A stretch of 6,068 nucleotides of DNA from IMG/VR virus record IMGVR_UViG_2740892426_000002; one strand, 5' to 3'. This document shows positions 4,129 to 6,068 of this stretch, in pieces. The notes beneath the pieces are model-generated. The model was not told the origin of the DNA, searched no databases, and saw nothing but the letters and a program-made list of their open reading frames with translations. Position 1 is the stretch's first letter, and each line of letters starts with the position of its first letter. The position numbers and the translations under genes are program-made. Source of the DNA: a virus. Lineage: Duplodnaviria > Heunggongvirae > Uroviricota > Caudoviricetes.

Positions 4129-6068
4129 TTAACTATCCTTTTCAGGTAGTTTTACAACATAAGTCCTTATTGTTTTCTCATATGTATTTTTGCTATTCGT
4201 TATTTTGGCCTTAATCCAGTGATAACCACTTTCATAGGTGCTGAATTCCGAAGCTGCATTACCTGTCCAGTGTAACGTTACTGTAGCAGGCTCCATTTTG
4301 ACCCGTTGAGAGTCTGGACTATCTTCACTACCAGCAGAAAACTCAACCGTACCAGATAATGGGTTTCCAAAATGATCGACAAATCGAGCATAAATACCTA
4401 CTGGAGAGCCATCGTTTGTCTCATAACCAGGATCTTTTGTTAGAGTCAATACTCCATTTGCGTCATCAGCGTACAGGGAGAATGATTTCACCGCGCTAAC
4501 ATCACTGCCAAGTTCGTTTAAGGTCGCCGTTAATTTATACGAACCAACCGTTCGACCATGTACGCTTACCGTAGCCTGACCGTTCTCATCAGTCGTTACT
4601 GTGGTTTTATCAACCACCAACGCACCATATTTAGACGGCCCAGATGTCTTAACATTCAATGCTCGACCACTTAATGCTTCGCCTGACTTACTTTTCAACA
4701 GTAACGTAAATACCAGATTGTTGGTATCGCTCACTACAGCCGAAGATGCAGATGATGTGATCTCCAACACAGCCCCCTTCACATCCGTCACGGCATCAAT
4801 ATTCTGGCTTGCGGTTATGCGTTTCCCATCCAGAACATACTCGGCCTGAATTGTGTACTGGCCTGATTTCGATGCAGTGAACTGCGTTGTTGCCTGTCCA
4901 TGAGCATCCAGTTGCAGATTACTACTGGTCAATGATGCTCCCGTCGATGGTGTAATCGTTAAATCCACCTCACCTGTAAACGCATTGTTATTCGCATCAA
5001 CCAACTGAATGTTTACTGTTGCGTTTTCACTGCCATCGGCCACAATCTCCTGTTTTGATACACTCATAGTAAGTTCTGCAGAAGCAACATCGGGCACAAA
5101 AGTTAACTTAACGCTGCCAGATTCCACGCTATGGGAACCGTCAGTCACCCGTGCAGTCACCGTGTACTCACCAGCTTTCACCGTTGTAAGCGGAACAGAA
5201 ACATGCCCTGTTGAATCAGTCACGATATTTGTTGGTACAGATAATCCTTCAGATGAGGTGATGAGCTGAATCTTTTGCCCATTGACCGACGCATTCGTAT
5301 TTGTCAGCTGCACATCTAATACCGCTGCATCCTTACCATTAGCAGGAATATTGGAAATTAAACTACTGCTTTCAGGCGTCAGTGACAGTGAAGCTCCGGT
5401 CATATTTGATGCAAAGGTCACTGTTAACTCAGTAGACATCTGAGAACCAGCATGAGCTGTAATCACGTAAGACCCCGGAGTGGAGCTTATTAACGCAAAA
5501 ATAGCATTACCATTTTCGTCAGTTGAAACAGCATGTTCACCACCAACTTGAGTTATCCCTGCTGGTAAAGACAATGTGACAGCATAACCAGGAACAACAT
5601 TGCCGAAACGGTCCGCAAGGCTTACAGTTACCATATTTCTCTGTTTTCCATCAGCCAATGCATTATTTTGGCTGGCTTCAAACTGAGAGAATGTAACCTG
5701 CTGCCGGTCCTCAATAAAGGTGATTTCTTTCTTAACACCTGAGAAATCATGACTATCAGATTTAACACCGATAGTAATCTTACCAGCTCGTTTTGAAGTT
5801 ACTGTCGCGCTATAGACACCGTCTTTTTCCGTTACAGTCCCAAACTCGACTCCTTCTGCCTGGTTAAGAGCATAAAAGCTCAGAGTGTTATCACCAGTGA
5901 TTGCATTTCCTTGTGAATCCTTCACTGCCAGTTGTAGATTGATATTGTAACCAACTACCTGTTCTGCTGGTGCAGCGGTTAAAACAGCACTGACCTCAGA
6001 ATCAGGTTCTGTTGCTGCTGTTTGCTTAATACTGAGAGTAAATGTTTTTCCCTGAACTTTTGCAGTTA
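4129..6068 (-). CDS. Large surface adhesin with tandem bacterial Ig-like (Big_1, invasin/intimin-type) domains, C-terminal 646 codons; the 5' end lies beyond the window
   Basis: Hand translation shows the minus-strand frame stays open from the ORF-track GTG at 5925 to the window edge (…TFTLSIKQTAATEPDSEVSAVLTAAPAEQVVGYNINLQLAVKDSQGNAITGD…), so the gene continues upstream. Stop TAA at 4131-4129. At least five tandem repeats of about 95-100 aa show Big_1-like patterns, e.g. ALADGKQRNMVTVSLADRFGNVVPGYAVTL...STDENGNAIFALISSTPGSYVITAHAG and IVADGSENATVNIQLVDANNNAFTGEVDLTI...LDAHGQATTQFTASKSGQYTIQAEY. Confidence 0.85.
   Translation of the reverse strand, partial: TAKVQGKTFTLSIKQTAATEPDSEVSAVLTAAPAEQVVGYNINLQLAVKDSQGNAITGDNTLSFYALNQAEGVEFGTVTEKDGVYSATVTSKRAGKITIGVKSDSHDFSGVKKEITFIEDRQQVTFSQFEASQNNALADGKQRNMVTVSLADRFGNVVPGYAVTLSLPAGITQVGGEHAVSTDENGNAIFALISSTPGSYVITAHAGSQMSTELTVTFASNMTGASLSLTPESSSLISNIPANGKDAAVLDVQLTNTNASVNGQKIQLITSSEGLSVPTNIVTDSTGHVSVPLTTVKAGEYTVTARVTDGSHSVESGSVKLTFVPDVASAELTMSVSKQEIVADGSENATVNIQLVDANNNAFTGEVDLTITPSTGASLTSSNLQLDAHGQATTQFTASKSGQYTIQAEYVLDGKRITASQNIDAVTDVKGAVLEITSSASSAVVSDTNNLVFTLLLKSKSGEALSGRALNVKTSGPSKYGALVVDKTTVTTDENGQATVSVHGRTVGSYKLTATLNELGSDVSAVKSFSLYADDANGVLTLTKDPGYETNDGSPVGIYARFVDHFGNPLSGTVEFSAGSEDSPDSQRVKMEPATVTLHWTGNAASEFSTYESGYHWIKAKITNSKNTYEKTIRTYVVKLPEKDS

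What the first reader, a model, noticed from the sequence alone, without database searches (positions are those of the whole stretch)
4129..6068. Ig-like repeat adhesin with no cysteines and a non-canonical C-terminal tip
None of the 646 residues visible in the window is a cysteine. Intimin and invasin end in a disulfide-bonded C-type-lectin-like receptor-binding domain, as I recall. Here the last 100 aa or so (…FVDHFGNPLSGTVEFSAGSEDSPDSQRVKMEPATVTLHWTGNAASEFSTYESGYHWIKAKITNSKNTYEKTIRTYVVKLPEKDS) begin like a Big domain and then diverge, with no Cys pair. This points to a different tip domain and possibly a different receptor than the characterised family members.
Basis: partly seen in the sequence, partly recalled or inferred. 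Interest (0 to 1): 0.45.

Follow-up and report, generated by a model that had tools for sequence, protein, structure and literature searches.

The report
FdeC-type E. coli adhesin, Ig-like tip
The window holds the outer half of a prophage-carried E. coli surface adhesin of the inverse-autotransporter family; having no cysteines and no lectin tip is normal for most of this family, and the end domain is one more, diverged, immunoglobulin-like domain.

Summary
Window 4129-6066 (- strand) encodes 645 residues plus a stop codon, with no cysteine. The full 1183-aa protein, read from complete E. coli genomes identical over window 4000-6068, also has none.

It is an inverse autotransporter. Its barrel matches Pfam IAT_beta at E 4e-101 and the invasin barrel structure at 9e-74. 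Seven Ig-like domains follow the barrel. There is no LysM and no Intimin_C domain.

The "non-canonical tip" reading is only partly right. The last 112 residues are not a different fold:
- They align end to end with the protein's own Big domains (own-domain HMM 13 bits; 0 of 2000 shuffles reach that).
- They match internal Big domains of YeeJ and FdeC.

Cysteine-free stalks are the family norm. In intimin and YeeJ, the cysteines outside the first 13 residues all lie in the last ~85 residues, where the lectin domain is. FdeC has one, at residue 21 in the presumed signal peptide. Published surveys find that most family members are FdeC-like.

What is mildly new: this is an unnamed paralogue. It is carried as cargo in a lambdoid prophage in about 10% of complete E. 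coli genomes, including ST131 and ST1193 strains. Its tip sequence was found only in E. coli and E. albertii. The receptor is unknown.

The parts
4129..6066 (-). 3' 1938 bases (645 codons plus stop) of a 3552-base inverse autotransporter gene. In the 1183-aa form these are residues 539-1183. The 5' part (signal peptide, beta-barrel, D00, most of D0) lies beyond the window edge.
   Evidence: Translation. Window 4000-6068 is 100% identical to NZ_CP030111 and many other genomes, where the CDS is WP_001773871.1, 'inverse autotransporter beta domain-containing protein'. Pfam IAT_beta, Big_1 x5 and Invasin_D3.
4132..4467 (-). Terminal (distal) domain, residues 1072-1183: a diverged Ig-like (Big_1-like) beta-sandwich with no Cys. 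Its sequence was found only in Escherichia.
4468..6006 (-). Five Big-type Ig-like stalk domains: D5 4468-4785, D4 4786-5091, D3 5092-5406, D2 5407-5706, D1 5707-6006. They are 21-26% identical to D1.
   Evidence: Pfam Big_1 (5 stretches) and Invasin_D3 (6 stretches). Domain alignment. PDB invasin 1cwv sequence match to residues 671-918.
6007..6066 (-). Last 20 codons of the D0 domain. This is the 119-aa unit present in 1 to 4 near-identical copies in different strains.
   Evidence: Length variants of 1183, 1302, 1421 and 1540 aa differ only by repeated D0 units.
4097..4117 (.). G+C-rich hairpin (9 pairs, 7 G-C). On the - strand it is followed by CTTTTT. It lies between the convergent hydrolase and adhesin genes and is a likely intrinsic terminator for the adhesin gene.
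   Evidence: Terminator scan; sequence. Inferred, not tested.
3049..4092 (+). Neighbouring cargo gene: a 347-aa alpha/beta hydrolase (BD-FAE/esterase family) with a lipoprotein-like N-terminus. It converges on the adhesin gene and is not always present beside it.
   Evidence: Pfam BD-FAE 5.7e-45. Annotated as alpha/beta hydrolase. Absent in L003. The lipobox reading is by eye only.
1..2699 (.). Lambdoid (DLP12-like) prophage backbone that sets the context. Genes, in order: porin 3' end 1-497 (+), quuD 728-1111 (-), ylcG 1197-1337 (-), rusA 1334-1696 (-), ybcO 1693-1983 (-), ninE 1976-2146 (-), ybcN/ninB 2146-2601 (-), a small ORF 2598-2699 (-).
   Evidence: Annotation of the matching locus L001, mapped with the offset. 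G+C is 50-53% here and 40-47% in the cargo.

Best explanation
The window carries the distal 645 residues of an uncharacterised, FdeC-type inverse autotransporter (type Ve secretion) adhesin. The gene is cargo in a lambdoid prophage of extraintestinal E. coli lineages.

Shown:
- The full protein has an N-terminal intimin/invasin-type beta-barrel, then seven Ig-like domains: D00, D0 (1-4 copies, depending on the strain), D1-D5 and a terminal domain.
- It has no LysM, no lectin cap and no cysteine.
- The terminal domain is itself a diverged Big-type Ig-like sandwich. It is under purifying selection between E. coli alleles.

Inferred from established knowledge of the family:
- After Sec export the barrel is inserted by BAM/TAM.
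- The passenger threads out through the barrel as a hairpin, and the Ig domains fold one after another outside the cell. Lacking cysteines suits this, because no Dsb step or bulky disulfide loop is needed.
- The rod projects the last Ig domain as the contact surface for adhesion or biofilm formation.
- The number of D0 repeats sets the reach of the rod.

The ligand is unknown.
For: Family and architecture:
- IAT_beta E 4.2e-101; Big_1 and Invasin_D3 repeats.
- Invasin barrel 4e1t 8.7e-74, intimin barrel 4e1s 6.7e-63, intimin D00 6tqd 8.8e-10.
- Barrel 56% identical to FdeC, 51% to YeeJ, 43% to intimin. Residues 15-656 are 42% identical to FdeC.

Tip is Ig-like:
-.

Cysteines:
- 0 in all length variants. 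Mature FdeC is also Cys-free. In intimin and YeeJ, Cys outside the first 13 residues occur only in the last ~85 residues.
- Low Cys content is general for type V passengers (PMC8151025).

FdeC-like architecture is the majority form (PMC4943183).

Constraint and occurrence:
- dN/dS is 0.23 overall and 0.12 for the tip between E. coli alleles.
- Found in 560 of 5426 complete genomes. In 22 of 25 sampled rows the CDS under the tip is annotated as barrel-containing.
- The prophage slot between replication gene P and ybcN is the same in three loci.

Related E. coli inverse autotransporters are surface-located and promote biofilm (PMC6714894).
Against: - No expression, surface display or binding data exist for this protein. 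Related E. coli genes were undetectable in their native strain under laboratory conditions (PMC6714894).
- Some copies are IS3-interrupted or frameshifted, and the E. albertii copy examined is a pseudogene.
- The structure model used an alignment seeded with the protein's own Ig domains, which leans towards an Ig fold. The single-sequence model was poor (pLDDT 50).
- The Pfam Big_1 score of the tip is below the curated cut-off.
- The barrel is not in the window. It is inferred from identical DNA in complete genomes.
Confidence: 0.85

Rival explanations
1. One reading: the last ~100 residues are a distinct, non-Big receptor-binding tip domain (a lectin-like or other fold without the disulfide) that replaces the intimin/invasin cap.
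For: Pfam does not call a Big_1 domain there at its cut-off. The tip has no PDB sequence hit. It has almost no relatives outside Escherichia. It is the most diverged domain between E. coli and E. albertii: 53% identity against 65-70% for the stalk domains and 86% for the barrel.
Confidence: 0.05
2. The gene is decaying or silent prophage cargo with no current function. Its features simply reflect its ancestry.
For: It sits in a defective prophage with IS elements and frameshifted neighbours. There are IS3 insertions in H1-H5, a frameshift in L002 and a pseudogene in E. albertii. No sequenced phage genome carries it. Related E. coli inverse autotransporters were not detectably expressed in vitro.
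Against: Open frames of 1183-1540 aa are kept in most carriers. dN/dS of 0.12-0.46 per domain indicates purifying selection. An apparently intact terminator follows the gene.
Confidence: 0.1
3. The terminal Ig domain is only a structural cap. Adhesion or biofilm formation comes from the whole rod (self-association or non-specific binding), with no dedicated receptor.
For: IatB, IatC and IatD gave biofilm but no extracellular-matrix binding or aggregation when overexpressed (PMC6714894). The tip has the same fold as the stalk domains.
Against: The tip is strongly constrained between E. coli alleles (dN/dS 0.12) while being the most diverged domain between species. That pattern suits a specific contact surface. 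Other inverse autotransporters have defined ligands (FdeC collagen and cells; InvD IgG/IgA).
Confidence: 0.3

Closest known systems
FdeC / EaeH (E. coli inverse autotransporter adhesin; Sakai ECs_0336, PDB 4E9L)
   Same: Same architecture: signal peptide, barrel with no LysM, a rod of Big-type Ig domains, an Ig-like last domain and no lectin cap. Its only Cys is at residue 21, in the presumed signal peptide. It has the closest barrel (56% identity), and the N-terminal halves are 42% identical. Heinz et al. describe this architecture as typical for the family.
   Different: It is a paralogue, not an orthologue. The passenger is only 22-29% identical and the tip shows no specific similarity. FdeC is 1417 aa, against 1183-1540 aa here. 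FdeC sits at a fixed chromosomal site next to ykgA; this gene is prophage cargo. This protein's D0 domain varies in copy number.
Intimin (eae) and Yersinia invasin
   Same: Homologous barrel (E 6.7e-63 and 8.7e-74) and D00 domain. Big-type stalk domains, which are the best structural matches to the tip model.
   Different: Both end in a C-type-lectin-like domain. Intimin Cys858/Cys932 lie in its last ~80 residues, and a review reports the DsbA-dependent disulfide in that domain. Here there is no such domain and no Cys. Intimin also has LysM and a Tir partner, and neither was found here. NCBIfam intimin_all scores 348.6 bits against a cut-off of 1400.
YeeJ, IatC, IatD (large E. coli inverse autotransporters)
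   Same: Barrel 51% identical to YeeJ. An internal YeeJ Big domain (residues 1762-1841) is the best outside sequence match to the tip (30% identity, E=2e-4). The best NCBIfam hit is the IatC N-terminal model.
   Different: Those proteins have LysM and a lectin cap, and YeeJ has three C-terminal cysteines. The IatC model scores 406 bits against a cut-off of 2400.
Periscope-type stalk variation (e.g. Yersinia ruckeri invasin-like molecule)
   Same: Near-identical tandem Ig domains whose copy number differs between strains. Here there are 1-4 copies of a 119-aa D0 unit (concept in PMC9704523; Y. ruckeri mentioned).
   Different: Only one domain type is amplified and the range is small. The repeat lies almost entirely outside the window.

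Membership tests
Inverse autotransporters (type Ve secretion) | N-terminal 12-stranded intimin/invasin-type beta-barrel (Pfam PF11924) | tested here: met
   IAT_beta residues 56-333, E 4.2e-101. Invasin and intimin barrel structures at 8.7e-74 and 6.7e-63. This was seen in the full gene of genomes identical to window 4000-6068, not inside the window itself.
Inverse autotransporters (type Ve secretion) | C-terminal passenger built of Ig-like (Big) domains following the barrel | tested here: met
   Big_1 x5, Invasin_D3 x6. Intimin D00 match. Domain alignments.
Inverse autotransporters (type Ve secretion) | Passenger exported to the cell surface with the C-terminus outside | not testable with these tools
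   Needs protease shaving or immunofluorescence of an expressing strain.
Intimin / invasin proper | C-terminal C-type-lectin-like domain (Pfam Intimin_C, PF07979) with a conserved Cys pair | tested here: not met
   No Intimin_C hit for the whole protein at E<=0.1 or for the tip at E<=10. 0 Cys. The tip models as an all-beta sandwich.
Intimin / invasin proper | Score above the curated NCBIfam equivalog cut-off (intimin_all 1400 bits) | tested here: not met
   348.6 bits.
Intimin / invasin proper | Periplasmic LysM domain before the barrel (intimin) | tested here: not met
   No LysM among Pfam hits. The barrel starts at residue 56, directly after the signal region.
FdeC/EaeH orthologues | FdeC-like architecture (barrel, Big rod, no LysM, no lectin) | tested here: met
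   The architecture is described in PMC4943183.
FdeC/EaeH orthologues | Orthology: high identity along the whole length and the conserved chromosomal locus | tested here: not met
   42% identity over the N-terminal half and 22-29% in the passenger. Prophage location between P and ybcN, against the FdeC site next to ykgA. Both genes occur in the same strain: MNCRE44 has fdeC in Goh Data Set S1 and this gene in H31.
Named E. coli inverse autotransporters IatA/YchO, IatB/SinH, IatC | Score above the NCBIfam equivalog cut-off | tested here: not met
   IatC N-terminal model 405.8 against 2400; SinH 319.5 against 999; YchO 271.5 against 508.
Pfam Big_1 (PF02369), applied to the terminal domain | Sequence score above the gathering threshold (34.9 bits) | tested here: not met
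   13.9 bits, E 0.061. All three tip homologues hit Big_1, best E 9.4e-4. The match covers profile positions 12-85 of 93.
Pfam Big_1 (PF02369), applied to the terminal domain | Ig-like beta-sandwich fold matching solved Big domains | tested here: met
Periscope proteins | Near-identical tandem stalk domains with copy number varying between strains | tested here: met
   1, 2, 3 or 4 copies of the 119-aa D0 unit in the 1183-, 1302-, 1421- and 1540-aa forms.

The most novel reading that the evidence does not exclude
This prophage-borne protein is an eighth, so far unnamed group of E. coli inverse autotransporters. Its Escherichia-restricted terminal Ig domain would recognise a specific host or microbial ligand, different from Tir, beta1-integrin, collagen or immunoglobulin. 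It would thereby contribute to gut or urinary-tract colonisation by the pandemic ExPEC clones ST131 and ST1193 that carry it, with stalk length tuned by the D0 copy number.
Probability: 0.2. Interest if true: 0.45.

Novelty: new member of a known kind. Interest (0 to 1): 0.2.

Why it matters
If the tip binds a defined ligand, this would add a mobile, phage-delivered adhesin to the colonisation factors of major multidrug-resistant ExPEC clones. It could also be a surface antigen candidate like FdeC.

As it stands, the finding mainly corrects an expectation. Among inverse autotransporters the lectin-capped, disulfide-bonded tip of intimin and invasin is the exception. A cysteine-free rod ending in an Ig-like domain is ordinary.

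Tried and rejected
- My first translation of 4129-6068 was out of frame, because the range is 1940 bases. It was repeated as 4129-6066.
- Sequence searches with the tip found nothing outside Escherichia. PDB by sequence gave nothing at E<=10. Phage genomes gave nothing. The word-indexed protein search returned only E. coli and E. albertii fragments. A pattern scan of one genome per species gave 400 pattern hits, none confirmed.
- In the exhaustive search, the hits below the Escherichia ones (P0010, P0017 and similar) are repeat proteins. They match only the motif 'DGSPVGIYARFVDHFGNPLSG' and were judged uninformative.
- The Pfam Med13_N hit on the tip (E 3.4e-4, 20.6 bits against a cut-off of 26) is a eukaryotic Mediator family and was rejected as chance.
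- Single-sequence AlphaFold of the last 325 residues was too poor to use (pLDDT 49.8).
- A first alignment meant for modelling lined up the overlap with D5 instead of domain to domain, and was discarded.
- The full-length protein search returned only same-gene length variants among its 120 listed hits, so it gave no view of distant relatives.
- Rfam found no RNA family in the window.
- Literature searches for a name for this gene found none. The papers found mention FdeC, SinH/Ila or IatC instead.

Full report
**Observation.** On the - strand an open frame enters the window at its right edge and stops at 4129-4131. The codons start at 6066, so 6067-6068 are two spare bases. None of the 645 is cysteine. 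The quoted C-terminal peptide is there exactly.

**What the gene is.** Window 4000-6068 is 100% identical to many complete E. coli chromosomes, and similar DNA occurs in 560 of 5426 genomes. In NZ_CP030111 (strain MCJCHV-1) the CDS is 3552 bases, encoding 1183 aa (WP_001773871.1, 'inverse autotransporter beta domain-containing protein').
- Pfam places IAT_beta at residues 56-333 (E 4.2e-101). Big_1 and Invasin_D3 repeats follow it. There is no LysM and no Intimin_C domain.
- By sequence, the barrel matches the solved invasin barrel (4e1t, 8.7e-74) and intimin barrel (4e1s, 6.7e-63). Residues 341-440 match intimin D00.
- I divide the passenger into D00, D0, D1-D5 and a terminal domain at residues 1072-1183.

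**The cysteine point.** The whole 1183-aa protein and its 1302-, 1421-, 1423- and 1540-aa variants have no cysteine. Against the E. coli average this looks improbable (P ~8e-4 for 645 residues). Against the family it is expected.
- Sakai intimin has Cys at 6, 858 and 932. K-12 YeeJ has Cys at 13, 2256, 2272 and 2335.
- Outside the first 13 residues, then, their cysteines lie only in the last ~85 residues. That is where the lectin-like cap is. Goh et al. report such a cap for YeeJ, and a review reports the DsbA-dependent disulfide in intimin's lectin-like domain.
- Their Big stalks, up to 2242 residues long, have none.
- Sakai FdeC (1417 aa) has a single Cys at residue 21, in the presumed signal peptide.
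- The same review states that type V proteins generally have low cysteine content (PMC8151025).
- No lectin cap therefore means no cysteines. These are one observation, not two.

**The tip.** Sequence searches show the domain is narrowly distributed.
- There was no PDB sequence hit at E<=10 and no match in phage genomes.
- In an exhaustive HMMER search of 1.84 billion representatives, the only true relatives were the protein itself, fragments of it, and a 135-aa E. albertii fragment at 55% identity. The weaker hits matched only one motif in unrelated repeat proteins.

The domain is nevertheless not a new fold. Five lines of evidence agree:
1. Pfam Big_1 matches all three tip homologues below threshold (best E 9.4e-4). 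The match spans profile positions 12-85 of 93, not just the start.
2. MAFFT aligns the tip end to end with the protein's own D1-D5. The GNPLSG motif, both invariant glycines (the 'TDxxG' and 'GxYxITA' positions) and the last strand are all in register, at 15-20% identity. The siblings are 21-26% identical to D1.
3. An HMM built from D1-D5 scores the tip at 13.0 bits. None of 2000 shuffles reaches that (maximum 8.6). The alignment covers tip residues 29-93, which includes the supposedly diverged half. hhalign gives P=0.0035 over the same stretch.
4. BLASTP aligns tip residues 23-107 to an internal Big domain of YeeJ (E 2e-4) and residues 25-95 to one of FdeC (E 0.002). No match falls in the lectin-cap end of intimin or YeeJ.

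**How it compares with the family.**
- Heinz et al. counted 231 intimin-type and 22 invasin-type proteins among 2468 barrel-bearing proteins. They found most to be FdeC-like (PMC4943183).
- This protein has that architecture. Its barrel is closest to FdeC (56%), then YeeJ (51%) and intimin (43%).
- It is a paralogue, not FdeC itself. It is 42% identical over the N-terminal half and 22-29% in the passenger. It sits at a different locus and coexists with fdeC in the same strains.
- No NCBIfam equivalog (intimin, IatC, SinH, YchO, Ilp, YrIlm, Inv) reaches its cut-off.
- Goh et al. 2019 listed seven E. coli groups. Their table gives MNCRE44 only fdeC, iatA and iatB, yet that genome carries this gene. 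So it is not among their named genes. I could not see their Fig. S1 to tell whether it was merged with the FdeC group.
- I found no paper that names it.

**Context.**
- In three loci the gene lies between replication gene P and ybcN/ninB of a DLP12-like lambdoid prophage. That is a typical slot for extra cargo genes.
- The cargo has 40-47% G+C, against 50-53% for the adjacent phage genes.
- A convergent alpha/beta hydrolase (BD-FAE family) is present in two of the three loci. A strong hairpin at 4097-4117 separates the two genes.
- No sequenced phage genome carries the gene.
- In E. albertii the homologue is chromosomal, between patD and ortT, and in the strain examined it is frameshifted.
- Identity between E. 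coli and E. albertii falls from 86% (barrel) to 65-70% (stalk) to 53% (tip). This is the same outward gradient reported for intimin.
- Between two E. coli allele groups, dN/dS is 0.23 overall and 0.12 for the tip. The tip is constrained, not decaying or diversifying.
- Some copies are broken by IS3 or a frameshift. In 22 of 25 sampled rows the CDS under the tip is annotated as barrel-containing.

**Mechanism (inferred).** I infer the standard type Ve route: Sec export, BAM/TAM insertion of the barrel, hairpin export of the passenger, and sequential folding of Ig domains outside the cell. The terminal Ig domain would be the distal contact surface. The D0 copy number (1-4 near-identical 119-aa units) would set the reach, as described for 'periscope' proteins. 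Adhesion or biofilm formation is the likely phenotype by analogy with FdeC, YeeJ and IatB-D. The ligand is unknown.

**Verdict.** The feature is ordinary for the family, however, and the tip is a diverged Big domain. It is best filed as a new, unnamed member of a known kind. Interest is low to modest.

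Noticed in passing
window 635-717: A perfect 42-bp tandem duplication lies between the porin gene and quuD. Each unit carries a hairpin (GGGGCG-TTTCCA-CGCCCC) followed by ATTTTT, so a terminator-like element is doubled. The matching genome NZ_CP030111 has one copy.
   Followed up: partly
window 3049-4092 (+): A 347-aa alpha/beta hydrolase of the BD-FAE/esterase family. Its N-terminus (…MSVGSC…) looks like a lipoprotein signal. It has low G+C like the adhesin gene and converges on it. It is present beside the adhesin in L001 and L002 but absent in L003, so it is probably separate cargo.
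   Followed up: partly
beyond the window's right edge; window 6007-6068 is the end of the last copy: The adhesin exists in 1183-, 1302-, 1421- and 1540-aa forms. They differ by 1-4 near-identical copies of a 119-aa D0 Ig domain. One 1423-aa form (P0032) has an irregular junction inside the repeats. The window stops about 60 bases into the last copy. That would fit an assembly break at this repeat, so the source strain may have more than one copy. This is an inference.
   Followed up: partly
L004:4383-7408: The E. albertii homologue is chromosomal, between patD and ortT, not in a prophage. It is split by a frame change into a 740-aa N-terminal ORF and a 264-aa C-terminal ORF, with D3 and part of D4 missing. 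Databases list the 3' remnant as a 135-aa hypothetical protein.
   Followed up: partly
H1-H5 (e.g. NZ_AP022650.1) and L002:6001-9934: In several genomes the adhesin gene is interrupted by an IS3-family element inside the region matching window 4000-6068. In another genome it is annotated as frameshifted.
   Followed up: no
window 4097-4117: A G+C-rich hairpin (9 pairs) sits exactly between the two convergent stop codons (hydrolase 4092, adhesin 4129). It has a T-run on the - strand only.
   Followed up: no
H28/H55 NZ_AP026904.1, H53 CP088398.1, H54 CP054248.1: Three records filed as non-mobilizable 'plasmids' of 237-542 kb carry the gene. Their size and typing suggest chromosomal pieces or unusual large replicons rather than ordinary plasmids.
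   Followed up: no
L001:12931-19617: In the matching genome the prophage that carries the gene is heavily degraded: a frameshifted replication gene, IS3, IS110 and IS30 elements, and a frameshifted intE integrase. It is unlikely to be inducible.
   Followed up: no
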